A program made the position numbers and the translations under genes. This document shows positions 7,581 through 38,514 of a stretch of 44,221 bases of DNA, one piece after another; position 1 is the stretch's first letter; each line of letters starts with the position of its first letter. This DNA comes from a virus. The DNA lies in IMG/VR virus record IMGVR_UViG_3300047160_000952. The stretch is one strand, 5' to 3'. The notes beneath the pieces are model-generated. The model searched no databases, had not been told where the DNA came from, and saw only the letters and a program-made list of their open reading frames with translations.

Positions 7581-7931
7581 ATGACCAAGTCCAACAAGCC
7601 CGCCGCCAAGAACACCACCGAAACCGGCCGTCTGATGCCGACCGTGGTCGAGTCCAACACCGACATCGGCGACGCGGCCTTCGCCAGCGGTCGCAAGCGC
7701 GGCATCCTGGCCATCAACAACGATGGCGACCTCGTGGTCTGCTGCCGCGCCACGGCCCGCATCCACGGCTGGAAGCTGGAAGGCTCGCTGCACGTCCGCC
7801 CGTCCACCGCCGCCGTGAAGGAGGTCAAGGCCGACCAGCCGGCCCGCCGCAAGACGGACAAGAACCCCAAGGCCGCGATCAGCGCTGCCGCCGCTACGCT
7901 CGGTCTCGACGACATCCTGGCCGTCAAGTAA
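7581..7931 (+). CDS. Hypothetical protein (116 aa)
   Basis: An RBS (cggag) lies upstream of the ATG at 7581, and codons are GC3-biased. The longer track ORF from 7308 crosses the intergenic promoter region. Confidence 0.8.
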   Translation: MTKSNKPAAKNTTETGRLMPTVVESNTDIGDAAFASGRKRGILAINNDGDLVVCCRATARIHGWKLEGSLHVRPSTAAVKEVKADQPARRKTDKNPKAAISAAAATLGLDDILAVK

Positions 7932-18536: not shown

Positions 18537-20945
18537 TCAGAACCTTCCGTAGCGTTGTGCGTGGCGCATGACCTTGACGATCTCGTCCTGGTGCATCATG
18601 AAGAAGCCCCCGGGCATCGGAGTCGCGTTGATGGACAGGCCACCGCTGGTGCCTTGCGCCATGTCCCGCACCGCGTTGGCTTGCTCCTTGGGCAGCACCA
18701 TTTCTTCCTCGTGCAGTTGGGTCATGGGGTTGACACCTGACGGAATGTCGTAGCCCCCGCGCGCCGACTTGACGTTGGACTGCATACCAATGGTCGCAGC
18801 AAACACCGCAGCCATGGCAGCAAGGGCCAGGATCGGGCCGACGTACGGGATGTCCGCCATGGCCGACGCAGCACCGGAGCCGGCCTTGGCCGCGTCACCC
18901 GAGATGCCCGCCATGTTGATGGCCTTCTCCGTTGCGAATACTGCCAGTTTCTTCTCGATGTACTGCGCCAGGAAGCCCGCGATGGCCGACATGGTCTGCT
19001 GGAACATGCTGCGCACGGCCTGCGTCCAGGTCATCTGGTGCGTCATGAGCGACTGAATGGTGTTCTGGAACGCGGTACCGATCTTGTTGAAGGCATCCTG
19101 GTAGTTCTTAACGGCCTCCTGGTTGCCCTTGATCTCGATCTGCCGCAGCTTGGCGTTGTGCGCTTGCTCCTCGGCCTCCAGCTCGTCGTCCAGCTTCTTC
19201 AGCGCGACGACGTTCTTGGTTGGATCCTTGGCCAGCGCAGCCAGTCGGTCGTCGATGCCTTGCTTGACGATGCGGTACCGGGCGTCTTCCAGCCGCTCCT
19301 CTTCCTTGATCATCTGCTCGTTGGTGATCAACCCCAGCGTCAGCTTGTTCTGAGCTTCAGCTTGCGCAGACGCGATGGATGCCAGCGCCATCTTCTGGCG
19401 GGACGCGGCTTGCTCCTCATCAAGTTGCAGCTCCTTCTGCTTGGTCTCCTTCATGTCGGCAAGCTGGACTTGCCCGGCCTTGCGACGCAGCGCGGTCTGT
19501 TCCTCCAGCGACAAGTCAGCGATGCTCAGCTTCTGTTGCCAGAACGCCTCTTCCTGTTGCTTGTCCATCTCACGCAGGTCGTTTGCCTTCTCGTAGGCAA
19601 CCTTCTGCTCCTCGAGTTCCGCCTCCCACTCCCCCATGCGTGAAGGGGCCTTTTGCTTCTGATCCTTGAGATCTCCCATCTGCTTCTTGCCCTTCGAAGA
19701 AGGGCCTGATGCAGCGACTTTATCGCCGTAAAGTCCATCCAGGTCGTTTGCGAACGCATCGGAAGCACCTTTGAAGTTGTCGACCGCTGCGTCTTTGATG
19801 TTGACGAACGACTGCACCATGCGGTCTTTCATCGCCACCACATCATCCGCAGCCTTGCTCCAGCGACCGTGCAGCACGTCGTCGATCAGCGTGCCCAGGT
19901 TGCCGATTTGATCCATCGTCGAGTTGATGAACTCGAAGATGACAGAGGCCACCGTCTTGACGACGGCGCCAATCGAACGAAACACCAGCAGCAGACCAGT
20001 CAGCGCGCCCTTGAAGACGGCAATGACGGTCGGGCCAGTGGACGCAAGGTACTCGGCCAGTTCCGTGAAGACTGGCATGACTGCGTCGCCAATGGTCTTC
20101 ATGACCGCTTCCATGACCTCGCTGACGTCGTGCATTGCCAGCTTGTACGCCTTGGCCGCAGCAACATTCTTCTGCGTGACGATCAGGCCCAGCGCCTCGT
20201 TTTTCTCCTTGGCTTCTTCCAGCACTGAGTTGTTCAGCTTCTGCAGCTTCATCACGTCGTCGACGCTGCGACCAAACAGCTTCTGCGCTGCGGCCGTCTG
20301 GTCAATGCCGGGCGCGTAGTCACTGACGACCCGCAGCGCTTCCTGGAAAACCTCGTTGGCGTCGCGCAGGTGCCCGTTGGCGTCCCGCGTCTCGACGCCC
20401 ATGGCCTTGATACCTTCCTCGTTGCGACGCAACTGCATCGTGAACCGTTGGAAGGTACCGGTGTACGTGTCGGCGTCCGTGCCGATCATACCCAGCGCGC
20501 TGTTCAGCGTGCCGGCTTCCTCGCCGCTGATGCCCAGCGACTTGGACAGCTTCAGGACTTCACCCGTCAGCTTGTTGGACTCGTTGATGGCTTCCTTGAA
20601 GAAGGCCCCGCCACCAACCACAGCGGCGAGACCCAAGAATACACCGGACACGGACTCGAAGATCTCGCTGACGGCGCTGAGCGACGACTTCAGCGCACCG
20701 ACGGAGCCAGTGACTTTGCCACCCATGCTCTCCATGGCTTCAGCGGCTTTTTCACTGTGCTCCGTCGCGCCGTGTGCCATCGACTGGAAGCCGCCCAGGA
20801 TGGCCTTGAACGTGTTGCCGAGGTTGCCCAAGCTGCCCTGGATGCGCTCGGTGCCGGCCTGCGTCGCTTGCGCGGCCGACTCCATGGCGTTGGTTGCGCC
20901 GGACGCGTCACCAGAGATGACGACTTTGGTTTCGTTGTCAGCCAT
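18537..20945 (-). CDS. Tail tape measure protein
   Basis: 802 aa, Ala/Lys/Glu-rich and helical, with a hydrophobic Gly/Ala segment near the C-terminus. It is preceded by the G/GT chaperone pair. Confidence 0.9.
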   Translation of the reverse strand: MADNETKVVISGDASGATNAMESAAQATQAGTERIQGSLGNLGNTFKAILGGFQSMAHGATEHSEKAAEAMESMGGKVTGSVGALKSSLSAVSEIFESVSGVFLGLAAVVGGGAFFKEAINESNKLTGEVLKLSKSLGISGEEAGTLNSALGMIGTDADTYTGTFQRFTMQLRRNEEGIKAMGVETRDANGHLRDANEVFQEALRVVSDYAPGIDQTAAAQKLFGRSVDDVMKLQKLNNSVLEEAKEKNEALGLIVTQKNVAAAKAYKLAMHDVSEVMEAVMKTIGDAVMPVFTELAEYLASTGPTVIAVFKGALTGLLLVFRSIGAVVKTVASVIFEFINSTMDQIGNLGTLIDDVLHGRWSKAADDVVAMKDRMVQSFVNIKDAAVDNFKGASDAFANDLDGLYGDKVAASGPSSKGKKQMGDLKDQKQKAPSRMGEWEAELEEQKVAYEKANDLREMDKQQEEAFWQQKLSIADLSLEEQTALRRKAGQVQLADMKETKQKELQLDEEQAASRQKMALASIASAQAEAQNKLTLGLITNEQMIKEEERLEDARYRIVKQGIDDRLAALAKDPTKNVVALKKLDDELEAEEQAHNAKLRQIEIKGNQEAVKNYQDAFNKIGTAFQNTIQSLMTHQMTWTQAVRSMFQQTMSAIAGFLAQYIEKKLAVFATEKAINMAGISGDAAKAGSGAASAMADIPYVGPILALAAMAAVFAATIGMQSNVKSARGGYDIPSGVNPMTQLHEEEMVLPKEQANAVRDMAQGTSGGLSINATPMPGGFFMMHQDEIVKVMRHAQRYGRF

Positions 20946-25943: not shown

Positions 25944-25995
25944 ATGGGTTCCTTTTGCGAGAAGTTGCGGAACGGGTTCTGTTGGCAGGGGTTGG

Positions 25996-27438
25996 TTACC
26001 GGAGGCCCATGGACGAGACGGCCTTCCGCATCTCGTATTCGGCTCGTTCGACGGTGCCCTCGGGCGGAGCGACTTCGGCCTTCGCCGTCTGGTCGGTGGA
26101 GGCCGCAGCGTCCTGCGCCTTGGACAACGTCTTCAGCAGCGCCTTGCCGCGCAGCGGCTGAGCGTTGATGGTGGCTTGCGCCGCTTGCAGTTGCTTCTGC
26201 AGATCTTCCTTCTCCTTTCCGAGCTTCTCGAGGGAATCGGTGAGCGGGGCCATCGCCTTGGCGACAGCAGCGTTGATCTTCTCGTCGATACCGGTGGTAT
26301 CGGCCTTGGCCACCTTGCCGGCCGTGCCGTTGTTCTGGCCGTGCTGGTCTTGTCCGTCGGTGGCGCTGTCGATCTCTTCCTCGTCTTCTTGCTTGTAGCC
26401 GAGGGCGTCCATCTTGTCGCAGCAGTCTTTCATCGACTTGTGCACGTCGGCGAGCGCGGCCTTGGTGTCGGCGCTGAACTTGGCGCCCTTCTTCTGCAGC
26501 GTGGTCGGCAGACCAGCCTTCGCAGCCATCTCGATGACTTCCGGATCGCCGACCAGTTGACGCAGGTTGGCCAGCATCTCCTGGGTCTCTTCCTCCGCCA
26601 TCTCGCGGAAGATGTCCGTGCCGGTCTTCAGCCAGTCCAGCATCTTCGCGGGCACGGGGCTGTTGTCGCCTTCGTACTCCGCCTCCCACGCGGCGTCGCT
26701 CACCATGTAGGCCAGCGAATTGAGGGTGTACGCGAAGTCGCTGACGGAGTACATGCCCTTCTGGATGGTGTCGCCTTCAGCAGAGCGGCCAGTTCCAGGG
26801 GTTGTGCCCCCTTTAGGGGGCAACCCCACGGAACCATCGCTTGCGGCGGGGGTGGCGTTTTTGTTCACCGGTTCCGGGGTCGGTTCCGGGTCGGCGGCGC
26901 CGTGTCGCTTGAGCAACTCGAGGATACGGGCCGGCAGTTTGTCGTTGCCGTCGATCATCTCGGCCAGCTCCACGACTTCCTCTTCCGGCGTCATGGCGGC
27001 CTTGTACATCGTCAGCAGCGCGTCCGGGTTGGCAGGACGGTCGACCAGCGAGACCTCGATCAGGTTGAGGCCCTTGATGATCTTCTTGTCCTGCGGGTCA
27101 CGCTCGGTGACCTTGCCACCGATGCTGAAGCCCTTGTACACGGACGTCTTGACCTTCTTGATCGCGGCATCGTCGACGACCAGCGCGCTGAAGTTGGTCT
27201 TGCCCGTGGTGTCGTCGACGTCGATGCTGAGCGCGGTGCCCGCAGCGCTGGGCTGGTGCATCTCGCGCAGGGCACCGAACTTCATGTAGTCCGGGATCGC
27301 AGCCTTCATGGCTTCGGGGGTGATGGTCTCCCCGTCGCTGTCGACTGCGCCGCTCGACGCAATGCCGTGGACGGTGATGGTACCGTCATCGTTGTCCTCG
27401 ACCTTGCTGATGTCGCAGTAGATCCGCTTCTTGGCCAT
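25996..27438 (-). CDS. Prohead serine protease (S78/HK97-like) fused to a scaffolding-like C-terminal region
   Basis: DSDGETITPEAM...GALREMH...KGFSIGGK...IEVSLVDRPANPDA matches prohead protease motifs. The C-terminal ~300 aa are coiled-coil and acidic. The ATG at 27438 has an AGGAG RBS. Confidence 0.9.
   Translation of the reverse strand: MAKKRIYCDISKVEDNDDGTITVHGIASSGAVDSDGETITPEAMKAAIPDYMKFGALREMHQPSAAGTALSIDVDDTTGKTNFSALVVDDAAIKKVKTSVYKGFSIGGKVTERDPQDKKIIKGLNLIEVSLVDRPANPDALLTMYKAAMTPEEEVVELAEMIDGNDKLPARILELLKRHGAADPEPTPEPVNKNATPAASDGSVGLPPKGGTTPGTGRSAEGDTIQKGMYSVSDFAYTLNSLAYMVSDAAWEAEYEGDNSPVPAKMLDWLKTGTDIFREMAEEETQEMLANLRQLVGDPEVIEMAAKAGLPTTLQKKGAKFSADTKAALADVHKSMKDCCDKMDALGYKQEDEEEIDSATDGQDQHGQNNGTAGKVAKADTTGIDEKINAAVAKAMAPLTDSLEKLGKEKEDLQKQLQAAQATINAQPLRGKALLKTLSKAQDAAASTDQTAKAEVAPPEGTVERAEYEMRKAVSSMGLR
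26791..26839. repeat. Imperfect 45-bp palindrome plus GGAACCATCG, related to 33080..33127, embedded in the protease-scaffold linker
   Basis: AGTTCCAGGGGTTGTGCCCCCTTTAGGGGGCAACCCCACGGAACCATCG compared with GGTTCCACCCCCTATAGCCCTTTAGGGGCTAGGGGGTCGGAACCATCG. Confidence 0.75.
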
Positions 27439-27442
27439 GGGG

Positions 27443-29923
27443 TTACTCCTGGGATTGGCTGTCATCTTCTGCCGAGTTATCGGCGAGCACCGGCAGTATA
27501 TCGCACCGGCAGTTCGGGTGCAGCGGGGGGCCGTCGCCACCCTCATCGGGGAAGTCGTCATCGAGCGGAACCTGCACCTTGTCCAGCCCGTTGCACTCAT
27601 CACACGTGTCACCGCCGCCGGTCGACCACTCCTTCATGTCGACGACGCCAGAAGCCTTGTAGCCTTCGAGGTTGCCTTGCACGTCTGCGTAGGCGGTCTC
27701 GGTACGGGCGATGGTCTCTGCACGTTCGTCGCTGAAGCCGTAGTTGTCGGCCAGCGCTGTGGCGATGTCGTCGTTGGTCGCGCCCGACTCGATGCCACTG
27801 ATCAGGTCAGTGCGCAGCATGTCTCGCGTGCTGTCCTCCAAGTCCTTGATCAGCGTAGCGCTGCGCTCGGCAGCGTAGTCCACGGCACGTTCGTTGACTT
27901 GGTCGAGCATGCTGTCGTCGATGTCGCTAAGCACCTGAGCCAGCGCGACTTCACCGGCCTCTTGCGTCATGTCCTCCAGCAGCTCGGCCAAGTCCGGCGC
28001 GATGTCCTGCAGCTCCTCGAACGTCAGCTCGCTGAGCAGGCGCGTCGTCTTCTCGTCGGCGCTGATGGCCGCTTCCTTGACGCCGGCCTTCTCGCCCAGT
28101 TCACGACTGATGCGCTTCCCCGCAGCGGCAAGAGCCGTCTGCACGAGCGTAGTGATACCGCTTGTACACTCCTTCACGGACTTGCGGTTGCGGTTCAGCG
28201 GCTTCACTGCCTTGCGCAGCGAGGCCGCTTGCGTTTTTCCCACCGGTTTCGCCGTACCTCCTTGCGCTGCGACCGGGCCGCCGGGCTTGCCACCCGGGGG
28301 CGGTTGACCGTCTCCTGGTACCTGGGCATTGGGCGCACCCGGTTGGCCCAGCGCAGGAGGTGCTGGGGGCGTCAGCGTGGCCTTTTGCTCCTCCGTCAGC
28401 GCCGGCATGCCCAGCTTGTCGCGCGCCTCGTCCGGCGTCATGATCTTGGCCGTGGTGTAGCCCGTGAGCGTCTGCATCTGGGCCAGCGGCGCGGCTTCCT
28501 CGTCCTCGACCCACTTGAACTCCAGGTCATCGTAGCCGAAGTACTTCCAGATGATGTAGTCCATCATCCCCTTGAACCACTTCATCAGCGGCGTCAGACC
28601 TTCGGCCTGTGCTTGATCCTTCTGGGTCTCGGCAGTCGCACGGTTGACCTGTTTCACCAGCGCAGACGGCGGCAGCGAGAAGCAGAAGCAGATGACACGA
28701 GCCAGCCAGTCGTCCATGTCGTCCTTCAGGCTCTCGCCCTTGGTCGGCGTGTACGCGGTGCCACCGGGCACGAACTTGGCGTGCCGGCGCTGCGCGGTGT
28801 CGCCTTCGAGGATGCTGTCCCAGTACTCCTGGAACAGACGGATCTGGTCGGGCGACCACTCGGTCGGCACGCCGATCAACGCTTCCGGCACGTTGCCTTC
28901 GGTGTAGAACTGCAGCTGGTGCACCTGACGGCGCAACGCGATGTTGACCGTCATGATGATCTGTTCGACCGGGCTGTAGCCGTACATCTTGTGCGTGCGC
29001 ACGTTGCGCGGGCGGTAGATCAGCTCGTCGCGCGTGTAGTTGATGGCCGGCAGACCGTGCATGATCTGCTGGTATGCGGGATCGGGCGGCAGCGGCGTGC
29101 GACCGGTGTCGTCCAGAACGCGCTTGATCGTGCTGCCATCGATCAGCTCCATGGCGTACAAGTCGCCACCGACGGTCATGCGCGGGAACAGCGTGGGCGC
29201 GTCCAGCACCAGCAGATCTTCCAGGATGGCGCGCATCCAGGTGTTCCAGTCGTGCTCCTGGTCGGGGTACTGGAAGAACTTGGTGATCTCCTCGATGCGC
29301 GGGTCTTGCACCGGCAGCTCGGGGATCTCCGGAACATCCTTGGGCTTGGGTGCCAGCGGCGCCGGTTGACTGAACGTGCCGTCACCGTTGTCGACCGGCT
29401 GTTGCGACTCGAAGTCCTTCTGCTGTTGGGCGTTGTCCGCCTTGACCTTCTCAGCGTGCTTCTTGACGGCCTCGACGCGCTTGACCGCCTGCTGGTGCTT
29501 CTCGATCTCGGGCTTCAGACCGATCTGCCACTCCATGGCTTCCATCTGGTCTTTGCGTGTCTCGATGGCGATGCGCAGCAAGTCCAGGTTTTCGGACAGG
29601 TTGCGCAACTGGTGGAAGCTGATGCCTTCGCCGTCGCGTGGCGTGCGGCGCACGTTGACGTTGACCGGGTAGTTGAACGCACGACCGCGGATGCCAGATG
29701 CTTCCGGCACGATAGGTGCGACCGGCTGACCCGGGCCCATCCACTGCGTCGGAGTGCCAGCGTTGATGTGCGGGATCTGGTCACGCGCACCTTGCACCAC
29801 GTCGTCCAGCAGTCCGTTGTCGATGGGCGTCGCTTTGGTGCCAGGGTTCTTGCGCGGCGAGTTGTCGCCGGCACCGAACACGGCCTTGAGCAGCCGGTTC
29901 AAGAGCGTTTGGTTTGCAGCCAC
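27443..29923 (-). CDS. Portal protein fused to a C-terminal Mu F / SPP1 gp7-like head morphogenesis domain
   Basis: 826 aa. The C-terminus ERAETIARTETAYADVQGN...W.TGGGDTCDECNGL...GPPLHPNCRCDILP is the MuF signature. The N-terminal ~520 aa sit where a portal gene is expected, after terL. Confidence 0.9.
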   Translation of the reverse strand: MAANQTLLNRLLKAVFGAGDNSPRKNPGTKATPIDNGLLDDVVQGARDQIPHINAGTPTQWMGPGQPVAPIVPEASGIRGRAFNYPVNVNVRRTPRDGEGISFHQLRNLSENLDLLRIAIETRKDQMEAMEWQIGLKPEIEKHQQAVKRVEAVKKHAEKVKADNAQQQKDFESQQPVDNGDGTFSQPAPLAPKPKDVPEIPELPVQDPRIEEITKFFQYPDQEHDWNTWMRAILEDLLVLDAPTLFPRMTVGGDLYAMELIDGSTIKRVLDDTGRTPLPPDPAYQQIMHGLPAINYTRDELIYRPRNVRTHKMYGYSPVEQIIMTVNIALRRQVHQLQFYTEGNVPEALIGVPTEWSPDQIRLFQEYWDSILEGDTAQRRHAKFVPGGTAYTPTKGESLKDDMDDWLARVICFCFSLPPSALVKQVNRATAETQKDQAQAEGLTPLMKWFKGMMDYIIWKYFGYDDLEFKWVEDEEAAPLAQMQTLTGYTTAKIMTPDEARDKLGMPALTEEQKATLTPPAPPALGQPGAPNAQVPGDGQPPPGGKPGGPVAAQGGTAKPVGKTQAASLRKAVKPLNRNRKSVKECTSGITTLVQTALAAAGKRISRELGEKAGVKEAAISADEKTTRLLSELTFEELQDIAPDLAELLEDMTQEAGEVALAQVLSDIDDSMLDQVNERAVDYAAERSATLIKDLEDSTRDMLRTDLISGIESGATNDDIATALADNYGFSDERAETIARTETAYADVQGNLEGYKASGVVDMKEWSTGGGDTCDECNGLDKVQVPLDDDFPDEGGDGPPLHPNCRCDILPVLADNSAEDDSQSQE

Positions 29924-31583: not shown

Positions 31584-32018
31584 TCAGTTCTCCTGAGTGA
31601 GTTTGGGCTTGCCGTCGCCGTCGCTCTCGACGAACTCGATGAGGAACGGCACCGGGCCGGTCTGCTGATCACCACTGCCTTGCGTGCGCACGGCGTTCTT
31701 CAACTCCACCGTGCTGATCTTGCCGTGCATGTAGGGCGCGGCGGCTTCGGCGTACTTGGCTGCGAACAAGCTGCCGCCCACCATGAACGCGCGACGCATG
31801 GCCATGACCATCACGTCCAGCGGCGTGGCGTCTTCGGGCAGCTCCATCGCCTCTTCCGGCGGCGGCTTGCGAGTGCCGGCAGCATAGCCGTCAGCGATGG
31901 CTTTGGTGCGGCGCACGCTGGCGCCCTTGTTCATGGACGCATTGGCCTGCGCCTTGGTGGCGGGCTTGCGTGCTGCGGTCTTCTTGGCCGGCTGTGCGGC
32001 CCTGCGCTGGGTAGCCAT
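31584..32018 (-). CDS. terS: Terminase small subunit candidate
   Basis: Basic N-terminus (QRRAAQPAKKTAARKPATKA) followed by ...AAKYAEAAAPYMHGKIS, resembling small terminases of similar phages. It lies upstream of terL. The alternative GTG start is at 32084. Confidence 0.6.
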   Translation of the reverse strand: MATQRRAAQPAKKTAARKPATKAQANASMNKGASVRRTKAIADGYAAGTRKPPPEEAMELPEDATPLDVMVMAMRRAFMVGGSLFAAKYAEAAAPYMHGKISTVELKNAVRTQGSGDQQTGPVPFLIEFVESDGDGKPKLTQEN

Positions 32019-32058
32019 GATGTACGGGTCGAGTTGTGAGGTCGGCCCGCAGTTTGCC

Positions 32059-32871
32059 TCAGAGCTTGCGCTTGTACGTGCCACCGTTGACTACACGCAT
32101 GTACTTCTCGAACTCGCAGAGGATGTTCTGCGCGTCCTGCGCGTCCACGCTGTAGCTCGCACCCATGCTGGCCAAGATCTTGTTGGCCCAGTCGCGCACC
32201 TGGATGACCGTTGCGTGCCACGTAAGGTCGGAGTTCAGCAGAGCGGCGCCACGCTTGGAGCCAGGGCCGGGCACAGCGAAGTCGTCCAGGTCAGGCAGCT
32301 GCATCATCCAAGGCATGTGCTCCTTGAGGTCAGCGATGATCTGACCGCCGATGAATGACCCGATGCCGTGCAGCTTGCGCAGGCGCTTAGCGTACAGGCT
32401 CAGGCTACCGGCAGGCTTGTTCAGGATGTGACGGTTCGTCCACGCGTCTTCCCAGACCTGATGTGCATAGAACTCAGCCCATGGCGTTGCGTGGCCGTGT
32501 GTGGTGGCCATGTACGCTTGGCTGCGGATGGGCAAACGAAGCTGCAAGCGTGCGTCCAAAACATCCTGGGCGCGCTGCGCGACGTAGCCAATAGGCGACC
32601 CCACTGCACCTACCGACAACAGCGCATGCACCGTGTCCGCGTGGTTGACGCAGCGTGCCACCAGCACCACGTGCGGCAGCGCACCCAGAGGGACATCGCG
32701 GTAGAGCTTGAAGAGCGCGATCGTACCGGCGTCCAGCGTGCGCTTCAGGTTGCAGAAGCGGTACATGCGAAGGATGTCGTCCGTCGGAGCCGGGCCGCCG
32801 TGCTTGCGCCACAGATAGGCCGTGTGCCGTTGCTGTATGAAGTGGGCGAGCTGGTCGTGGATGTGTGCCAT
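32059..32871 (-). CDS. aGPT-Pplase clade-1-like protein (DNA base hypermodification family)
   Basis: N-terminal signature HTAYLWRKHGGPAPTDDILRMYRFCNLKRTLDAGT, plus LHGIGSFIGGQIIADLKE and VPGPGSKRGAALL blocks, as I recall for this family. An AAGGAA RBS is present. It is the first gene of the late operon. Confidence 0.7.
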   Translation of the reverse strand: MAHIHDQLAHFIQQRHTAYLWRKHGGPAPTDDILRMYRFCNLKRTLDAGTIALFKLYRDVPLGALPHVVLVARCVNHADTVHALLSVGAVGSPIGYVAQRAQDVLDARLQLRLPIRSQAYMATTHGHATPWAEFYAHQVWEDAWTNRHILNKPAGSLSLYAKRLRKLHGIGSFIGGQIIADLKEHMPWMMQLPDLDDFAVPGPGSKRGAALLNSDLTWHATVIQVRDWANKILASMGASYSVDAQDAQNILCEFEKYMRVVNGGTYKRKL

Positions 32872-33010
32872 GTCGGTTCCTTGTGTTCAGAGCGTGATGG
32901 GGTGGTGGCGGACTCGGCAAATTTTGCGAGTGGACGTGGGGGTGTGGTTAAGAGAACCCACCCGAGCGACCTCCCGACCGTGGTGCCGTGCGACCTGAGT
33001 TGGGATTGCC

Positions 33011-33200
33011 AGTTCCAGGGTGGGTCACTGAGGGAGCGCTTGGTTCCTTCCGATCGCGCCACAAGGTCGGTCGGTTACCGGTTCCACCCCCTATAGCCCT
33101 TTAGGGGCTAGGGGGTCGGAACCATCGACCAGACTGCCATTGATGGTTCCACTGGAACTACCTGGAACTACCCTGGAACCGGAACTACCCCTGGAACCAT
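33011..33200. repeat. Iteron/palindrome-rich non-coding region (at least 10 GGAAC/GTTCC cores)
   Basis: AGTTCCAGGGTGGG at 33011; palindrome 33080-33123; inverted repeat GGAACCATC...GATGGTTCC at 33118-33150; direct CTGGAAC(T/C) repeats starting at 33152, 33162, 33173 and 33191 (10-11 bp phasing). Confidence 0.85.
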
Positions 33201-33206
33201 CGTTGT

Positions 33207-35519
33207 TCAGAGGATTTCCTCCTGAGCCTTCAGGCGCAACCAAGTGCGGCCCATCTTGGTGATGCGCACCTGATTTTGACCGCCGCTGGACTCCATCTCG
33301 ATCCAGTCTTTCTCCGTGTACAACTCCAACAACGCCTTGATACGGCGACGGTGAATGTGTGCGCCAATGGACACCTGCGACTGGCTGATGAAGTCGTCAT
33401 GTTCTGCGAGGAACGCCAGCACAGCCTGCGCGCTGGACATGTCACGGAACTCTTCGTCTTGCATGACCTGCCGTTGCTTGGCTTCAGCGAGTTGGTGTGC
33501 TTCAAGGCGCACGAGTTCGGGACGGGGCATGAGCAAGGCTCCTTTGCGTTCGAAGATGTGAGTGCCCAGAGGGGCGGAGTAGTTGTGCTTGACATGTTTG
33601 AAGACCGCGTACCGCGCGACGGTCTCAGCCGTTGCGGGCAGGCCGTAGTTCAGTGCGTCCTTCATGGGCATGGACACCAAGACACCCACCGACCGCGCGT
33701 TGTCGGCAAAGCTGCTGGCGCCGCGCAAAGCTCCTTGGTTGATCTCGTCCAGCTGTGCCCAGGAGCCGGCCTTGGACATGTGGTGCAGCACCATGACCGC
33801 GCAGTTGGCCTGCTTGGCAATGACCGTCAGGGTCTGCATGTACGCGGCCATGTCGGCGATGTTGTTCTCGTCGAGCTGGTGGGTGTACACCGCCGGGTCA
33901 AGGATCAAGAGCTTTACCTTGTTGCGCGTCAGGAAGCCTATGAGCCAGTTGACGCGCTCTGTGCGCTCGGGCGTCTCGAAGCGGTCGGACTTGGTGAGGA
34001 TGAGCCACGAGGCCGCGTCGTCATCGGCCGCGTACATCAGCAGGTTCTGGGCGAGCGTGCCACGCACGTCGTACAGCGCGTCGTACACTCCACCGTCTGC
34101 TTCAGCGAGCTGCGTGACCAGAGCGTGAACGCGCTTGTGCATCTCCTGCTTGTCGTCTTCGTACGATACCGCGAGCGACCTGATGGGGCCACTGGGCTTG
34201 AAGGGGCCGAACTCACGACCCATCGCAGCGTAGACCGCCATGTGCAGCGCGAGCATGGACTTGCTGACACCACCGGGGCCAGCAATCACCGTGACTTTGC
34301 CGACCGGGGCCATCTGCTCGATCGCCCATTCACGTGCGACAGGCTCGGTGGCAAGGTACTGCAGCAGGTTCGCCTTCTCGAGGAACGTGGCGTCATCGTC
34401 CAGCACACCAGCCTCGGCCTGTTCTGCGGCCGACATGTAGTCGTTCTCACGCAAGAACCTGACGAGCGTGCCCATGGTCAGATGAGGCTGTCCGTCCGTG
34501 TCGGGCGCGGTGTCGAAGCACTTGACAGCGGCGCGTGGATTGCCGTCGTAGTTCGCCTCGTAGTACACGGTCTGCGTGTCGTTCTCGGAGTCATGCTCGT
34601 CAAGGAACGGACAGACGATGTAGTGCATGCCCTTGTGCTTGGGGTTCTCGCGCAGGTACAGGCCGGCTACCTTGATGGCTTGCAGGACGAGATCAGCCTT
34701 TGCCTCAGCACGTGCAAGTCCGTCTTTGGCGTCGTCAGCCGCAGTGTCCCAATCGGCAACATCGCGTGCGTCAGACCGCTCGGAAACCGTGCCCTTGCTT
34801 GCGACAGTTCGCCAAGGCTTGCCCTGATGGTAGCTTTCGTAGTACGAACCGCCGTCGAGCTGGGCCGGTAGGTACATGGCCTGCGAGAGTACCCAGCTCT
34901 CGGGTTGAGTCCATTCCTCGACGCCCAGTTTCTTCGCGGCTGACAGCGTGCTTGCTCGTAGAGCCGCCACTGCATGTTCCACTCCGCCATCAGCTGCTGG
35001 GTCGATTGGTTGGCCGAGGGGGAGCACAACTCGGAACCGAGGAGCATCATCTGTGTGGGATAGGCTGGTGTAGACCCAGCCTTCGCCGCCCAGCTCCTCA
35101 AGGCGCTGCGCAACGAGTTCAGGGCTTGGCGGAGGAACATCGTGGTCTCCTTGTTCGATGTCGAGGGTCAGGTAGGTGCGTGCCTTGACGTGCGTGTCGT
35201 CGCGCTTGCGGCAGGTGCCACCGACGAAGTACGGCAGGTGCCGCTTGACGTTGCCCTTCTCACGCTTCGACATACCTTGATAGGTATCGAAGTCGGTGTC
35301 GACTTGCAACGGTTCGTGGAAGGAGTCACGCAGGTCAGCGAGTGTCGCGTCCTCACCACTGAGCCGTGGCTTGGTGTTCGCGACGCCACCTTGCGTGACG
35401 TAGCTGTAGGGGTTGGCTGGCATGGGTTCGTGGCTGTCGTTGGTGTAGGCTGGGAGGCCGTATTGTGGGCGACCGGTTCCAGGGGTAGTTCCAGGGGTGC
35501 TACCAGTGGTATCTGGCAC
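33207..35519 (-). CDS. Primase-helicase: AEP prim-pol-like N-terminus, RepA/AAA_25-like P-loop helicase core, C-terminal winged-helix
   Basis: YLTLDIEQGD, YTSLSHT and RVVLPL resemble AEP motifs. Walker A is VIAGPGGVSKSMLAL, Walker B LLILDP, followed by VMVLHHMSKAG. The C-terminal ~80 aa look like a wHTH. The start is uncertain (GTG 35519 or ATG 35423). Confidence 0.9.
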   Translation of the reverse strand: MPDTTGSTPGTTPGTGRPQYGLPAYTNDSHEPMPANPYSYVTQGGVANTKPRLSGEDATLADLRDSFHEPLQVDTDFDTYQGMSKREKGNVKRHLPYFVGGTCRKRDDTHVKARTYLTLDIEQGDHDVPPPSPELVAQRLEELGGEGWVYTSLSHTDDAPRFRVVLPLGQPIDPAADGGVEHAVAALRASTLSAAKKLGVEEWTQPESWVLSQAMYLPAQLDGGSYYESYHQGKPWRTVASKGTVSERSDARDVADWDTAADDAKDGLARAEAKADLVLQAIKVAGLYLRENPKHKGMHYIVCPFLDEHDSENDTQTVYYEANYDGNPRAAVKCFDTAPDTDGQPHLTMGTLVRFLRENDYMSAAEQAEAGVLDDDATFLEKANLLQYLATEPVAREWAIEQMAPVGKVTVIAGPGGVSKSMLALHMAVYAAMGREFGPFKPSGPIRSLAVSYEDDKQEMHKRVHALVTQLAEADGGVYDALYDVRGTLAQNLLMYAADDDAASWLILTKSDRFETPERTERVNWLIGFLTRNKVKLLILDPAVYTHQLDENNIADMAAYMQTLTVIAKQANCAVMVLHHMSKAGSWAQLDEINQGALRGASSFADNARSVGVLVSMPMKDALNYGLPATAETVARYAVFKHVKHNYSAPLGTHIFERKGALLMPRPELVRLEAHQLAEAKQRQVMQDEEFRDMSSAQAVLAFLAEHDDFISQSQVSIGAHIHRRRIKALLELYTEKDWIEMESSGGQNQVRITKMGRTWLRLKAQEEIL
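35475..35498. repeat. Tandem GTTCCAGGGGT repeats; 35475-35492 is the exact inverted copy of 33181-33198
   Basis: GGTTCCAGGGGTAGTTCC at 35475-35492 is the reverse complement of GGAACTACCCCTGGAACC at 33181-33198. Confidence 0.85.
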
Positions 35520-35685
35520 CTATGGCCGACCCATGCGACACTGGCGTCACTCCACGGGAATGGGGTGTTGTCAAGGGTTCGCTCGTACCTCCCTGATCAG
35601 GTCGTCATGACTCGCCAGTTAGGCCGGTTCATCGCAAGGTGGCCGGCCTTCTTTTTCGCCTGAAGACCCTACATCAAGAAGGCTC

Positions 35686-35714
35686 TTGTGAAGGTCGAGT
35701 TGTTCGCGCATCAT
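35686..35714 (+). promoter_or_regulatory. Sigma70-like early promoter candidate (TTGTGA-17-CATCAT) inside a conserved repeat
   Basis: It lies in the divergent control region. The surrounding sequence is conserved with 7471..7545, including the upstream TCAAGAAGGyTCTTG palindrome. Confidence 0.4.
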
Positions 35715-35748
35715 GAACGCACTGACTCAACGAACTAAGGTAAACGAC

Positions 35749-36078
35749 ATGCAACGCTACGTTATTGAAACCAAGCAGATCGATGGTGGTGTGTGGCTGG
35801 CCCCGTGGAAGAACGGCAATCACACTGCCCGCAGCAAGGCCGCTGCACTGGTGGCGATGCGCACTGCTAACACCATCAACGCTTGTCCCAAGCGTGTTGT
35901 GGACACCAAGACGGGCAAGGTCATTGCCACCATCGGTGATGACGAAGCGTGGGCTGAATATGCGGCTCGTTGCCAGCAGATTCGCCAAGATCGGGAAACC
36001 AAGGCGTTCAACTACGACGCGCCGCTGAACTCCGAGTTCCTGGGTGCTGCCAAGCCTCGCGCTGGTGAAGACTACTGA
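35749..36078 (+). CDS. Hypothetical protein (109 aa; track ORF starts at 35713)
   Basis: An AAGG lies 8 nt upstream of the ATG at 35749. Codons 35713-35748 have low GC3 and overlap the conserved promoter/leader repeat. Confidence 0.75.
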   Translation: MQRYVIETKQIDGGVWLAPWKNGNHTARSKAAALVAMRTANTINACPKRVVDTKTGKVIATIGDDEAWAEYAARCQQIRQDRETKAFNYDAPLNSEFLGAAKPRAGEDY

Positions 36079-36079
36079 C

Positions 36080-36250
36080 ATGGCACCGCAGCGCCTGAGT
36101 CCCTTGTTCGCGACTGACCCCCGCGTGCTGCGGGTGGTCAGCAGCCGGCTCAATCTGATCCGCGCCTTTAGTATCGAAGCGGCTTCGCGACAAGACCCCA
36201 AGTCCAAGAAGGTTTCTCGAAGTCGGTCAAAGAAGGCCGCAACAAAATAG
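36080..36250 (+). CDS. Possible small basic protein (56 aa)
   Basis: The ATG lies 1 nt after the upstream stop. GC3 bias holds only in the first two thirds, and the 3' end overlaps a regulatory-repeat copy. Confidence 0.35.
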   Translation: MAPQRLSPLFATDPRVLRVVSSRLNLIRAFSIEAASRQDPKSKKVSRSRSKKAATK

Positions 36251-36272
36251 CCGTGTAAGTACGGAGGGTACC

Positions 36273-36488
36273 ATGAACGACAGCAACACCGTCATCCTGG
36301 GCAAACCGTTGAAACGTCTGATCGGCGCGACGCGCTGGCATGACGTCATGCACACCCCGGTGCAAGTCAGCGCAGAGACCTGGGTTCGTTTCGTCGCCGT
36401 CATGGGGCTCGAACGCAAAGGTTCGAACCTGTGGACTGATGGCACCTGTGAGTACATGTTCGAAAGAAGGAGAGATGACCGTGCGTAA
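36273..36488 (+). CDS. Hypothetical protein (71 aa)
   Basis: A strong RBS (GGAGGG) lies 5 nt upstream of the ATG. Confidence 0.75.
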   Translation: MNDSNTVILGKPLKRLIGATRWHDVMHTPVQVSAETWVRFVAVMGLERKGSNLWTDGTCEYMFERRRDDRA

Positions 36489-36702
36489 CACCGCTTCGAA
36501 AGACAAGAACGTGCGCCTCGTGCGTGCATACCACACGGCGACCGAGACCACCATGGAGTATACGGGCTACGGCTTCACTCTATGGGTGAAGCACACCAAG
36601 GATACGCAAGGGTGGCGCGTCCAAGGCGTCCCCGGCACGCACAAGAAGTCGGCTGCCATCGCCCTTGTAGCCAAGGCGCTGTTTGATCTGCAGGGGGTCT
36701 GA
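36475..36702 (+). CDS. Hypothetical protein (75 aa)
   Basis: An AAGGAGAG RBS lies immediately upstream of the ATG at 36475. Only the 3' part of track ORF 36340..36702 is used. Confidence 0.75.
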   Translation: MTVRNTASKDKNVRLVRAYHTATETTMEYTGYGFTLWVKHTKDTQGWRVQGVPGTHKKSAAIALVAKALFDLQGV

Positions 36703-36704
36703 CC

Positions 36705-36878
36705 GTGTCGGACTTCGAAGCGTGGTTGCTGGTGACGGCGTGCAGCTTTCTAGGCTACGTCTCGCTGCGCTGGCTCGTCGTACACCTGTACATCTTCATC
36801 CGCCTGATCATCTACTTCACCGTCTACGCTGGCGCGGCGCGCATCTTCCGCACGCTGCGCGGGCGCAACTGGAAGTAA
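36705..36878 (+). CDS. Small membrane protein (57 aa, below the track cutoff)
   Basis: GTG start after GGGGG. It encodes SDFEAWLLVTACSFLGYVSLRWLVVHLYIFIRLIIYFTVYAGAARIFRTLRGRNWK with strong GC3. The competing track ORF 36683..36904 is Arg/Leu-rich wrong-frame sequence. Confidence 0.6.
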   Translation: MSDFEAWLLVTACSFLGYVSLRWLVVHLYIFIRLIIYFTVYAGAARIFRTLRGRNWK

Positions 36879-36942
36879 GAAACTTCTGTAGAAGGGTCTT
36901 CTGAACACGCGATACTTCCTCATACCCCACATGGAGACCGTC

Positions 36943-37380
36943 ATGCTCAAGACCCTGCTGCTTCTTCTGCTCGCCGCGCTGTCGTCCATCGAAGATCACG
37001 ACCCGGCGCGAGTCACCCGCATTCGCACCCGCGCTGAGGTCAGCGGCAGCCGCATCAAGCGTGATGGCGACACGGACGAGCACGAAGACATCGTACCCAC
37101 GCGCAACGAAACACAAGTGGTCGTGGTGTTGATGCAGTACGACACGCCGAAGGCCGTCGTCCACGCTTGCCAGAAAATGGGCGCGTGGCCTGGCTGGACG
37201 GACACGCAGGTGCTGGCGGGTCATCCGGCCCCGGGTTGCAATTCGTTCGACCCTAGCACTAAGGTGTGCACCATTCATACGCTGCGCCCCCGCTTCGTCG
37301 AAGACGACGACCGCATGGCCAACGCAGGGCATGAGCTGCTGCACTGCTTCGAAGGCGCGTACCACAAACAAGACGCATAA
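36943..37380 (+). CDS. Secreted/exported small protein with an HExxH motif (zincin-like candidate)
   Basis: Signal-peptide-like MLKTLLLLLLAALSS. C-terminal NAGHELLHCFEGAYH. A GGAG lies 6 nt upstream of the ATG at 36943 (track start 36931). Confidence 0.75.
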   Translation: MLKTLLLLLLAALSSIEDHDPARVTRIRTRAEVSGSRIKRDGDTDEHEDIVPTRNETQVVVVLMQYDTPKAVVHACQKMGAWPGWTDTQVLAGHPAPGCNSFDPSTKVCTIHTLRPRFVEDDDRMANAGHELLHCFEGAYHKQDA

Positions 37381-37439
37381 GAACCCGCGCTGTCGAGCCG
37401 CGTGACGCTCGACGAACTGCCCATTCCCAAGGATGAACC

Positions 37440-38450
37440 ATGACGACGATTTTCAAGTTCCCTGAGTACGAGCAACACCCCATCGCCGCTGAGCTGATGC
37501 CGGGTGGCATGGACGAGCAAGAGTTCGAAGGCTTCGCCGAGGACATCGGCGAGCGCGGTGTGCTCATGCCCATCAGCCTGTTCGAAGGCAAGGTGCTGGA
37601 CGGATGGCACCGTTACCGCGCCGCTCGCCAGCATCAGTGCGCGTTCAAGACCGTCGAGTACACCGGCAAAGACCCTGCCGGCTACATCGCGTCGGTGAAC
37701 GTGCTGCGCCGCAAGCTGGGCTCGCTGCAGCGCGCGCTGGTCGGTTGCAAGCTGCACCGCGAGCACGGATACACCCAGCGCAACGCGTGCAAGAAACTGG
37801 GCATCTCGAACGAAGTGCTGACGCTCGTCCTGCGCGCCATGGACTCGAAGAACGCCAAGCTCGTCAAGCGTATCGAGACCGACAGCGATTTCACGCGCGG
37901 CATGCTCCGTGAAGAGTTGGAGGACGCTGGCCTGATGCGCACCAAGAAGGTCGAAGCAGCCCCCGCCGCTCCGAACTCCGTGTTCGACACCAAGGCCATG
38001 CTGTCCAGCGCTGCCGCATCCGCCGGTCTGGACGACGTTCTGGGCCGCGCTACCGATGGTAGCGACGACGGAGAGGACGACACGGACGACCTACTGAGTG
38101 TCCCCGACACGGGCAAGCGGCGCACGCACCCCGAGCGCAAAGGGAAGGCCAGTGCGGCTCAGCTTCTGCAGGAAGGGTTCACGGCACTGATGGAGGACGA
38201 AAAGAAGACGTTCCTCGAGATGATCTGGCCCGTAGCCCGTGAGTTGGCCCTGGAGTTGCAGCTGCCCGGCACCAATACGGCCCCGGCCAAGCCCGCAAAG
38301 GCTCCTGCAGAGCGTCGAGCGGCCAATGTGGTGGAGACGTCTACCCCCAGGGCCGGCAAGCGCAAGGACGACGCGCCTACGACCCCGCTCGACGTACTGA
38401 AGAAGGCCGTCAAGACCAGTCCGGCGACGAAGGCCAAGAAGTCGGCCTGA
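37440..38450 (+). CDS. ParB-like nuclease (ParB/Srx N-terminal) domain protein with a low-complexity C-terminus
   Basis: LFEGKVLDGWHRYRAA is the ParB/Srx-fold signature. An HTH-like KKLGISNEVL segment is present. RBS is AAGGA. Confidence 0.85.
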   Translation: MTTIFKFPEYEQHPIAAELMPGGMDEQEFEGFAEDIGERGVLMPISLFEGKVLDGWHRYRAARQHQCAFKTVEYTGKDPAGYIASVNVLRRKLGSLQRALVGCKLHREHGYTQRNACKKLGISNEVLTLVLRAMDSKNAKLVKRIETDSDFTRGMLREELEDAGLMRTKKVEAAPAAPNSVFDTKAMLSSAAASAGLDDVLGRATDGSDDGEDDTDDLLSVPDTGKRRTHPERKGKASAAQLLQEGFTALMEDEKKTFLEMIWPVARELALELQLPGTNTAPAKPAKAPAERRAANVVETSTPRAGKRKDDAPTTPLDVLKKAVKTSPATKAKKSA

Positions 38451-38514
38451 GCCACACTGCATACCCACGCCGACGCGGCCCCGGCATCACGGGCCGCACA
38501 CAACGGAGAACCCA

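What the first reader, a model, noticed from the sequence alone, without database searches (positions are those of the whole stretch)
33011..33200. Iteron and palindrome array between the primase-helicase gene and the late operon (origin, pac or late-control region)
This is about 190 bp of non-coding DNA packed with GGAAC/GTTCC cores:
- AGTTCCAGGGTGGG at 33011.
- A 44-bp imperfect palindrome at 33080-33123.
- A 9-bp inverted repeat GGAACCATC...GATGGTTCC at 33118-33150.
- A phased direct array of CTGGAAC(T/C) starting at 33152, 33162, 33173 and 33191, plus GGAACT at 33181. The 10-11 bp spacing puts the sites on one face of the helix.

Such phased iterons typically mark replication origins bound by the adjacent initiator. 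Here that would be the primase-helicase, which has a C-terminal winged-helix. They can also mark TerS-bound pac regions; terS lies about 1 kb downstream on the same strand.
Basis: partly seen in the sequence, partly recalled or inferred. Interest (0 to 1): 0.62.

Follow-up and report, generated by a model that had tools for sequence, protein, structure and literature searches.

The report
Phage replication origin beside its primase-helicase
The repeat-packed DNA just after this phage's primase-helicase gene is most likely the replication origin, where the enzyme's own DNA-binding tail docks to start copying the genome; this is a familiar kind of element, not yet described or tested in this phage group.

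Summary
The 335-bp gap between the primase-helicase gene and the first late gene holds 10 GGAAC/GTTCC cores in 200 bp, against 0.45 expected and a maximum of 4 elsewhere. It also holds a 44-bp palindrome flanked by inverted cores.

The window is a complete circular 44.1-kb phage genome, and all these genes lie on the minus strand.

All 20 informative relatives of the 26 fetched have the same layout at the same place. Each lineage has its own repeat word: GGAAC, GTGAGTACTCAC, GGTGAGTACGA, GGGAGTAC, CTGCTAC or GGTAACC.

In most relatives (about 13 of 18) the same word also sits in the promoter-like leader of the primase-helicase gene.

One natural module swap is decisive. Two phages whose TerS (99%) and ParB-like (97%) proteins are nearly identical carry different words, and they differ only in the primase-helicase module.

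The enzyme's C-terminus models as a winged helix. Its recognition-helix start differs by word class.

Best reading (about 0.65): an iteron-plus-hairpin origin read by a self-loading primase-helicase, with an autoregulatory operator upstream. A TerS-read pac site is disfavoured. A role in late-gene control is not excluded.

This scan has found the same layout before in other phages, for example Dhillonvirus coliphages.

The parts
33011..33200 (.). Main iteron array: 10 GGAAC/GTTCC cores. GTTCC is at 33012, 33043, 33081 and 33146. GGAAC is at 33118, 33154, 33164, 33175, 33181 and 33193. Cores on the two sides of the palindrome point in opposite directions.
   Evidence: equivalent arrays in relatives
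33080..33123 (.). Central palindrome or hairpin (GC-rich stem, A/T-rich loop) flanked by inverted GGTTCC/GGAACC.
   Evidence: Folds at -18.8 kcal/mol as ssDNA, z -5.6. A hairpin of different sequence sits at the same position in every relative. No T-run follows it.
33118..33150 (.). Second inverted pair, GGAACCATC ... GATGGTTCC, around a 15-bp spacer.
   Evidence: I13
33151..33198 (+). Head-to-tail run of five sites (CTGGAACTACC type). It ends 9 bp from the stop codon of the primase-helicase gene.
33207..35423 (-). Primase-helicase gene (738 aa from ATG 35423). It has an N-terminal AEP PrimPol-like domain, an RSF1010 RepA-like helicase (Pfam AAA_25) and a C-terminal winged helix.
   Evidence: The start codon is set by the homologous non-coding leaders of relatives and by codon-position GC.
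33210..33420 (-). C-terminal winged-helix domain, the proposed iteron reader. The class-specific block GAHIHRRR lies at the turn between helices 2 and 3 and the start of the recognition helix.
35476..35499 (-). Leader operator: two tandem CTGGAAC sites (CCTGGAACTACC, CCTGGAACCGG). They lie between a conserved GATACC..GGTAGC palindrome (35498-35515) and a -10-like ACAATA (35461-35466).
26789..26894 (.). Secondary unit: GTTCC-hairpin-GGAACCATCG (26789-26839) plus two GGTTCC sites (26869-26894). It lies in frame in the linker of the protease-scaffold gene.
   Evidence: the insertion is absent from homologous proteins of relatives
32927..32959 (-). Conserved box GGGTTCTCTTAACCACACCCCCACGTCCACTCG between the array and the first late gene. 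It is a candidate late promoter or leader, and it is not part of the iteron system.
   Evidence: it travels with the TerS module
31584..32084 (-). TerS-like protein (probable start ATG 32018), conserved in all relatives.

Best explanation
The array is the phage's replication origin.

Proposed mechanism:
1. The primase-helicase binds the GGAAC sites through its C-terminal winged helix.
2. The sites face each other across a palindrome. Two helicase rings could therefore assemble head to head immediately downstream of their own gene.
3. Melting lets the palindrome fold into a hairpin on each strand. This hairpin may serve as the start signal for the enzyme's own AEP-type primase domain, as the ssiA/ssiB hairpins do in IncQ plasmids.
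4. The phage's T7-like DNA polymerase and gp2.5-like single-strand-binding protein then take over.
5. Two further GGAAC sites lie in the promoter-like leader of the primase-helicase gene. They would let the protein repress its own synthesis.
6. The extra hairpin unit at 26789-26894 would be a second docking site, either a second origin or a cis enhancer.

Shown here: the elements themselves, their conservation, their co-variation with the primase-helicase module, and the predicted folds.

Inferred: binding, melting, priming at the hairpin, and autorepression.
For: Real and unique.
- 10 cores in 200 bp against 0.45 expected.

Conserved layout.
- In all 20 informative relatives of the 26 fetched, an array of a lineage-specific word lies after the primase-helicase gene and before the late genes.
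- In each, a hairpin sits between inverted copies of that word.
- Twelve such hairpins fold with z from -2.9 to -7.3 although their stems differ completely.

Same word in the gene's leader.
- The word recurs in the leader in about 13 of 18 loci, in a block-diagonal pattern.

Natural module swap.
- L014 (GGGAGTAC) and L019/L020 (CTGCTAC) have TerS 98.5-99% identical and ParB-like protein 97% identical.
- Their flanking DNA is 92-93% identical on both sides.
- The primase-helicase is only about 70% identical, and its C-terminus, the small ORF and the array are unrelated.

No other conserved protein in the module.
- In this window and the other GGAAC-class phages the array starts right after the stop codon.
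- The ORFs upstream in this window have no homologues in the relatives.

The domain fits the role.
- The C-terminal 130 aa model as a winged helix (pLDDT 83). They match MarR/Sso10a-type DNA binders.
- The block at the start of the recognition helix is class-specific; G[AS]x[IV]H[KR]R occurs only in the GGAAC class.
- Across classes this domain is 35% identical on average, against 58% for the rest of the protein.

The enzyme fits the role.
- The helicase matches RSF1010 RepA (1G8Y, E 3.5e-22). The N-terminus has an AEP PrimPol fold (6ZP9, E 4.8e-5).
- No other initiator was recognised in the genome.

Precedents.
- SaPI Rep: 6-12 short iterons just after rep, in two opposed sets (PMC9371898).
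- pRN1 ORF904 and Bordetella phage BIP-1: a stem-loop origin just 3' of the gene (PMC4234260).
- RSF1010: iterons plus ssi hairpins (PMC8567376).
Against: - There is no experimental evidence of binding or origin activity for any member of this phage group.
- Co-variation is partly confounded by shared descent. Only one clear recombinant pair separates the candidate proteins.
- In three word classes a small, class-specific ORF that looks winged-helix-like lies between the primase-helicase gene and the array.
- Within the GGAAC class the winged helices are only 30-47% identical between the more distant members.
- There is no clear AT-rich unwinding element. The centre is a GC-rich stem.
- P26218's secondary hairpin unit carries GAGTAC flanks, not that phage's own CTGCTAC word. 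Secondary units therefore need not match.
- No secondary unit was seen in two GGAAC-class relatives.
- GC skew follows transcription direction and gives no origin signal.
- The array always lies directly upstream of the late operon, which would equally suit a transcriptional role.
Confidence: 0.65

Rival explanations
1. Late-operon control region. The repeats would be binding sites for a transcription factor that switches the late operon on and tunes the primase-helicase promoter, without any role in starting replication. The factor could be the primase-helicase tail itself or a small module-encoded winged-helix protein.
For: - The array always sits directly upstream of a conserved box and the first late gene.
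- The same word lies in the promoter-like leader of the primase-helicase gene.
- Small winged-helix-like ORFs sit next to the array in three classes.
Against: - The GGAAC class, including this window, has no such small ORF.
- The conserved box travels with TerS while the array travels with the primase-helicase. They are therefore separable units.
- A hairpin kept through complete sequence turnover, and Watson-Crick on both strands, is not expected for a plain activator site.
- A copy inside a coding region at 26789 has no promoter to serve.
Confidence: 0.15
2. Packaging (pac) recognition site. TerS would bind the repeats and direct the first terminase cut for headful packaging.
For: - The array lies 0.9-1.1 kb upstream of terS on the same strand.
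- By my recollection, SPP1 and P1 pac sites contain short repeats flanking the cut region.
- P26218 assembles as a circle, as expected for headful packaging (PMC4657236).
Against: - TerS is 98.5-99% identical between L014 and L019/L020, yet their arrays use unrelated words.
- TerS is conserved across all classes while the word changes.
- Contig ends do not coincide consistently with the array.
Confidence: 0.05
3. RNA-level element. The hairpin would be a transcription terminator, attenuator or processing site between the replication gene and the late genes, and the repeats would be incidental stem extensions.
For: - The hairpin is strong and lies between two transcription units on the same strand.
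- In P26218 and MW202557 the secondary units lie in intergenic gaps after head genes, a usual place for terminators.
Against: - No T-run follows any of the hairpins, and the terminator scan finds nothing here.
- No Rfam family matches.
- Wobble pairs show no strand bias.
- This reading does not explain 8 further sites outside the stem, or the matching sites in the leader.
Confidence: 0.05
4. Centromere-like or mobile-element ends. Either the conserved ParB-like protein binds the repeats as parS-type sites, or the inverted repeats that bracket the primase-helicase gene are the ends of a transposable unit.
For: - A ParB-like gene is conserved in all relatives.
- A perfect 18-bp inverted repeat brackets the primase-helicase gene (33181-33198 and 35475-35492).
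- The best PHROG hit of the N-terminus is labelled 'DNA transposition protein'.
Against: - The ParB-like protein is 97% identical between phages with different words, and its helix-turn-helix is nearly invariant across classes.
- The swap boundaries lie 150-800 bp outside the repeat clusters, within homologous flanks, which indicates homologous recombination.
- The N-terminal domain models as an AEP primase.
Confidence: 0.03

Closest known systems
SaPI Rep / PriRep self-loading helicases and their ori (Staphylococcus aureus pathogenicity islands; PMC9371898)
   Same: - 6-12 penta- or hexanucleotide iterons lie immediately downstream of the helicase ORF.
- They form two sets pointing in opposite directions around a centre.
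- A C-terminal winged helix on the helicase reads them.
- In SaPI5 the primase is fused to the helicase.
- Specificity differs between elements.
   Different: - SaPI Rep is an AAA+ helicase of the pre-sensor II insert clade that moves 3'-5'. The helicase here is RepA/DnaB-like (Pfam AAA_25; 1G8Y).
- The SaPI centre is an AT-rich tract. Here it is a GC-stem hairpin with an A/T-rich loop.
- SaPI binding is shown experimentally. Nothing is shown here.
IncQ plasmid RSF1010 oriV with RepC, RepA and RepB' (PMC8567376; PMC4234260)
   Same: - The helicase domain is homologous to RepA (E 3.5e-22).
- The primase is of the AEP type.
- The origin combines iterons with hairpin-forming priming signals on both strands.
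   Different: - RSF1010 uses three separate proteins, and its iteron reader is RepC. Here the three functions appear fused, with a winged helix in place of RepC.
- I recall the RSF1010 iterons as about 20 bp, and ssiA and ssiB are two separate 40-nt elements. Here there are 5-bp cores and one palindrome.
- Priming at the hairpin is only inferred here.
pRN1 ORF904 and Bordetella phages BIP-1/BPP-1 (PMC4234260; PMC2777425)
   Same: - One polypeptide carries a prim-pol domain, a helicase and a C-terminal winged helix.
- The origin is a stem-loop just 3' of the replication gene.
- The promoter upstream of the gene is also part of the minimal replicon.
   Different: - ORF904 has an SF3 helicase.
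- No iterons were found at the pRN1 origin.
- The pRN1 stem-loop is about 100 nt long.
Satellite phage P4 alpha protein with ori and crr (Ziegelin & Lanka 1995, cited in PMC4234260; the details of crr are from my own recollection)
   Same: - It is a primase-helicase-winged-helix protein that binds repeats at its origin.
- The same repeats recur at a second, distant cis site.
   Different: - P4 alpha has a DnaG/Toprim-type primase and an SF3 helicase.
- No central hairpin is known to me in the P4 origin.
- The distance and function of the second site are untested here.

Membership tests
SaPI-type Rep origin | Short iterons (6-12) begin immediately downstream of the helicase ORF | tested here: met
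   10 GGAAC cores lie in 33011-33200. The nearest ends 9 bp from the stop codon at 33207-33209.
SaPI-type Rep origin | Two iteron sets point in opposite directions around a central AT-rich region | tested here: inconclusive
   The opposite orientation is met: GTTCC at 33012, 33043 and 33081 against GGAAC at 33118 and 33154-33193. The centre is a GC-stem palindrome, and only its loop is A/T-rich.
SaPI-type Rep origin | A C-terminal winged helix of the helicase sets iteron specificity | tested here: inconclusive
   The winged-helix fold is predicted (pLDDT 83). Its recognition-helix block and the repeat word co-vary, and both follow the module swap. Binding itself is not testable with these tools.
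SaPI-type Rep origin | Helicase of the AAA+ pre-sensor II insert (MCM-like) clade | tested here: not met
   Pfam gives AAA_25 (E 6e-30). The only PDB sequence match is RSF1010 RepA 1G8Y.
IncQ (RSF1010) replication system | RepA-type hexameric helicase | tested here: met
   hmmsearch against 1G8Y gives E 3.5e-22.
IncQ (RSF1010) replication system | RepB'-type AEP primase acting on ssi hairpins | tested here: inconclusive
   The N-terminal 200 aa model as an AEP fold. The best match is cyanophage S-2L PrimPol (6ZP9, E 4.8e-5), not RepB'. A hairpin is present, but priming at it is untestable.
IncQ (RSF1010) replication system | Separate RepC initiator that binds the iterons | tested here: not met
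   No RepC-like protein was found by Pfam, PHROGs or NCBIfam scans of the genes tested. A winged helix is fused to the helicase instead.
P4 alpha / ori-crr | DnaG-type primase plus SF3 helicase plus winged helix in one protein | tested here: not met
   The three-part architecture is analogous, but the primase is AEP-type and the helicase RepA-like.
P4 alpha / ori-crr | The same iterons occur at a second cis site | tested here: met
   There are sites at 35476-35499 and a hairpin unit at 26789-26894. Their function was not tested.
TerS-read pac site (SPP1/P22/P1 type) | The site's sequence follows TerS specificity | tested here: not met
   TerS is 98.5-99% identical in L014 and L019/L020, while the arrays use GGGAGTAC and CTGCTAC.
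Intrinsic terminator | GC hairpin followed by a T-run on the transcribed strand | tested here: not met
   The scan finds none in 32000-37600 except at 37373-37390. None of the relatives' hairpins has a T-run.
Curated RNA families (Rfam 15) | Match at the gathering score | tested here: not met
   There are 0 matches in the whole window and no tRNA.

The most novel reading that the evidence does not exclude
A one-protein version of the IncQ replication system in lytic phages. A single polypeptide would carry the iteron reader, the RepA-type helicase and the AEP primase. The conserved palindrome between opposed iterons would be a two-strand priming signal that the same protein uses. The origin sits directly in front of the late operon, so firing of the origin could open the late genes, coupling replication to late transcription. 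Extra copies of the hairpin unit, one of them inserted in frame into a structural gene, would act as secondary origins or long-range enhancers.
Probability: 0.2. Interest if true: 0.6.

Novelty: new member of a known kind. Interest (0 to 1): 0.4.

Why it matters
Phages of this group are freshwater phages of Betaproteobacteria-type hosts, related to Rhodoferax phage P26218. They carry a T7-like replisome but no RNA polymerase and no recognised initiator, so how they start replication has not been described.

The comparison gives a concrete, testable origin and names its reader. It provides at least five natural specificity variants, plus a natural module swap, for domain-swap experiments.

It also shows the replication module moving between tailed-phage morphotypes: the structural genes here are siphovirus-type, while those of P26218 and MW202557 are P22-like podovirus-type.

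On the practical side, it corrects the start codon of the primase-helicase gene and marks the array as non-coding for annotation.

Tried and rejected
No read-start, coverage or terminus analysis could be done.
- **The window's own genome** is not held.
- **First scan of viral contigs** with the single protein found nothing. The scan with an alignment found 24 loci.
- **Rfam and tRNA** gave no matches.
- **Sigma-70 promoter scan** found none in 32000-37600. The -10-like ACAATA in the leader rests only on conservation.
- **GC skew** follows transcription direction and does not locate an origin.
- **TerS as reader** is rejected by the L014 versus L019/L020 swap.
- **ParB-like protein as reader** is rejected: 97% identity across classes and a near-invariant helix-turn-helix.
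- **Transposon ends** are rejected: the swap boundaries lie outside the repeats, within homologous flanks.
- **attP** is rejected: no integrase was seen among the genes scanned here or in the annotated relatives.
- **Translation of the array** is rejected: only short ORFs overlap it. The 35424-35519 extension has non-coding codon-position GC.
- **Secondary hairpin units in GGAAC-class relatives** (the contigs of L007 and L009) were searched for and not found.
It was repeated without them.
- **Helical phasing** as a general feature is not supported.

Full report
**Observation.** The window is a complete, circularly assembled phage genome. Its first 97 bases repeat at its end, giving about 44,124 bp at 63% GC. 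The finding lies in a 335-bp non-coding gap, 32872-33206, and all neighbouring genes are on the minus strand.

The order on that strand is as follows:
- a 738-aa primase-helicase (35423->33207);
- the gap;
- a PF18723 (HMUDK_hel) protein (32871->32059);
- a TerS-like protein;
- TerL;
- a portal-MuF fusion.

The density is far beyond chance. The best 200-bp window holds 10 GGAAC/GTTCC cores, against a genome mean of 0.45 and no more than 4 anywhere else. CTGGAAC occurs 22 times against 5.4 +/- 2.1 in shuffles.

The claim that the sites lie on one face of the helix holds only in part. The spacings are 10, 11, 6 and 12, and spacing is not conserved in relatives.

**Further sites in the same genome.** Two tandem CTGGAAC sites lie at 35476-35499 in the opposite orientation. 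A second GTTCC-hairpin-GGAACCATCG unit, with two more GGTTCC sites, lies at 26789-26894.

The second unit is in frame in the Pro/Gly/Thr-rich linker of the protease-scaffold protein. It corresponds to an insertion of about 20 aa that the homologous proteins of two relatives lack.

**Relatives.** The collections gave 26 related loci: two GenBank phages and 24 IMG/VR contigs. The GenBank phages are Rhodoferax phage P26218 and the uncultured podovirus MW202557.

In every locus that reaches far enough (20 of the 26), the DNA after the primase-helicase gene and before a conserved box plus terS holds an array of a short word. In each array a hairpin sits between inverted copies of that word.

The word differs by lineage:

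| Word | Loci |
|---|---|
| GGAAC | this window, L003/4/25, L007, L009, L010 |
| GTGAGTACTCAC | L001, L006, L008 |
| GGTGAGTACGA | L013, L018 |
| GGGAGTAC | L011, L014-17, L022 |
| CTGCTAC | P26218, L019, L020, L023, L024 |
| GGTAACC | L012 |

The hairpin stems share no sequence between lineages. Even so, twelve of them fold as single-stranded DNA with z-scores from -2.9 to -7.3. Wobble pairs show no strand bias and no T-run follows any of them. This points to a DNA-level palindrome rather than an RNA element. Rfam and tRNA searches found nothing.

**The leader of the primase-helicase gene.** In about 13 of 18 loci the lineage's own word also occurs 30-140 nt upstream of the primase-helicase ATG. 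The counts form a block-diagonal matrix. There the word sits between a conserved GATACC-N3/4-GGTAGC palindrome and a conserved -10-like ACAAT(A/G).

The window's 35476-35517 stretch is homologous to these non-coding leaders, and its codon-position GC is non-coding: GC3 is 0.56 against 0.76 in the gene. The gene therefore starts at ATG 35423, not at GTG 35519. The two upstream sites are then an operator-like element, not codons.

**Which protein reads the word.** Three conserved DNA-binding candidates are encoded nearby: TerS, a ParB-like protein, and the primase-helicase C-terminus.

A natural recombinant separates them. L014 (GGGAGTAC) and L019/L020 (CTGCTAC) compare as follows:
- DNA 92-93% identical on both flanks;
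- TerS 98.5-99% identical;
- ParB-like protein 97% identical;
- primase-helicase about 70% identical at the DNA level;
- no detectable similarity over its C-terminal third, a small downstream ORF and the array.

The specificity determinant therefore lies inside that module.

Only the primase-helicase is common to the module in all lineages. In the GGAAC class the array starts right after the stop codon, and the window's upstream ORFs have no homologues in relatives and weak coding signal.

One caveat remains. In three other classes a small, class-specific ORF that looks winged-helix-like lies between the gene and the array (weak HTH hints only).

**The domain.** The last 130 residues model with mean pLDDT 83 as a winged helix. 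Helix 2 is residues 73-80, recognition helix 3 is 84-96, and the wing is 100-113. The best structural matches are MarR/Sso10a-type DNA binders.

The most variable block of the alignment is the turn before helix 3 and the first turn of that helix, and it is class-specific. G[AS]x[IV]H[KR]R occurs only in the GGAAC class. The other classes have ELNTRTNR, QLNSKPAL, DGGRRWNPA and so on.

Between classes this domain is on average 35% identical, against 58% for the rest of the protein. L001 and L012 share 75% in the core but 50% in this domain, and they use different words.

**The rest of the protein and genome.** The remainder of the protein is an RSF1010 RepA-like helicase (Pfam AAA_25; PDB 1G8Y, E 3.5e-22) and an N-terminal AEP PrimPol-like domain (6ZP9, E 4.8e-5).

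The genome also encodes a family-A DNA polymerase, judged by my reading of its sequence motif and by the relatives' annotation. It has a gp2.5-like single-strand-binding protein and an exonuclease. No recognisable separate initiator or RNA polymerase was found.

**Mechanism proposed.**
1. The winged helix docks on the opposed GGAAC sites.
2. RepA-like rings assemble on either side of the palindrome.
3. Melting lets the palindrome fold on each strand and offers the AEP primase a start signal.
4. The leader sites give autorepression.

The binding, melting, priming and repression steps are inferred, not shown.

**Precedents.**
- SaPI Rep/PriRep: a winged-helix C-terminal domain, 6-12 short iterons just after rep, and two opposed sets (PMC9371898).
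- pRN1 ORF904 and Bordetella phage BIP-1: a stem-loop origin just 3' of the gene, with the upstream promoter also essential (PMC4234260; PMC2777425).
- RSF1010: RepC on iterons, RepA unwinding, and RepB' priming at the ssiA/ssiB hairpins (PMC8567376).
- P4 alpha with ori and crr (cited; the details are from my own recollection).

This element is a member of none of these by homology of the whole system. Only its helicase is homologous, and only to IncQ RepA. It works like all of them.

**Rivals.**
- *TerS-read pac site.* The swap disfavours this. Contig ends give no consistent terminus. P26218 assembles as a circle (PMC4657236).
- *Purely transcriptional role.* This cannot be excluded, because the array always precedes the late operon. 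However, the conserved box next to it (window 32927-32959) travels with TerS, not with the array.
- *Terminator, ParB centromere, transposon ends, attP.* Each was considered and rejected. The reasons are given under Tried and rejected.

**Open points.**
- P26218's secondary hairpin unit (NC_029061 25986-26102) carries GAGTAC flanks rather than that phage's own CTGCTAC word. MW202557's unit matches its own word. The secondary units thus seem to travel with the structural module, and their role is uncertain.
- No secondary unit was found in two GGAAC-class relatives.

**Earlier notes of this scan.** Notes on the same genome pointed to the bracketing 18-bp inverted repeat and to the 26.8-kb copy. 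I checked both here. The scan has also reported the same layout in other phage groups, such as Dhillonvirus: iterons plus a hairpin 3' of a primase-helicase gene, with a second copy elsewhere. I did not test those reports.

**Verdict.** The feature is real and conserved, and it is very probably the replication origin with its matching operator. It is a new member of a known kind, with good natural material for experiments. No experimental proof exists.

Noticed in passing
window 26789-26894: A second GTTCC-hairpin-GGAACCATCG unit plus two GGTTCC sites lies in frame in the linker of the protease-scaffold protein (25996..27612, minus strand). It encodes about 20 extra residues (ASDGSVGLPPKGGTTPGTG) that the homologous proteins of two relatives lack. 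The stems of the two hairpins differ but stay complementary.
   Followed up: partly
window 32927-32959 (minus strand); L014 about 7748, L010 about 3794, L002 about 3104: A conserved box of the form G(G/T)TCTCTGC..CAC..CGACAC lies 55-85 nt upstream of the first late gene in every relative. It travels with the TerS module, not with the array. It may be the late promoter or leader, or the true pac region.
   Followed up: partly
window 35498-35515 and 35461-35466: A conserved GATACC-N3/4-GGTAGC palindrome and a -10-like ACAAT(A/G) flank the operator sites in the primase-helicase leader of most relatives. The factor that reads the palindrome is unknown.
   Followed up: no
L028 (NC_029061) 25986-26102; L027 (MW202557) 38464-38548: Homologous hairpin units lie in an intergenic gap downstream of the head genes. 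MW202557's unit carries its own repeat word. P26218's carries GAGTAC flanks, although that phage's origin word is CTGCTAC, which looks like a leftover from a replication-module swap.
   Followed up: partly
L002 2369-2662 (P26218 gp43), L014 7160-7522, L006 3873-4160, L011 3869-4186: Small, class-specific ORFs that look winged-helix-like sit between the primase-helicase gene and the array in three repeat classes. The GGAAC class, including this window, has none. They may be co-regulators or alternative iteron readers.
   Followed up: partly
window 37440-38450; all relatives: A ParB-like protein is conserved in every relative, on the strand opposite to the primase-helicase, with an almost invariant helix-turn-helix (TQR.ACKKLGISNEV). 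Its DNA target is unknown and is not the iterons.
   Followed up: partly
window 10356-31260 compared with L027 and L028: This phage has a siphovirus-type structural block (tape measure 18537..20945, Terminase_3-type TerL). P26218 and MW202557 share its replication module, TerS and ParB but have P22-like podovirus structural genes. The Terminase_3 TerL occurs only in GGAAC-class loci.
   Followed up: partly
window 35622-35660 (plus strand): A GC hairpin followed by TTCTTTTT reads as a plus-strand terminator just upstream of the primase-helicase leader. A similar 'cttctttttcgcc' stretch lies at the start of the P26218 record. ORFs in 35674-36702 have weak coding signal on either strand.
   Followed up: no
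L007 about 7700-7830: Four tandem copies of a unit of about 23 nt (gctgacgacttcagttgaaata) lie between the conserved box and terS in one relative.
   Followed up: no
L009 / L034 (IMG/VR contig of 41,770 bp): This contig, classed as having direct terminal repeats, begins and ends inside the iteron array. This could be an assembly break at repeats or a real end.
   Followed up: no
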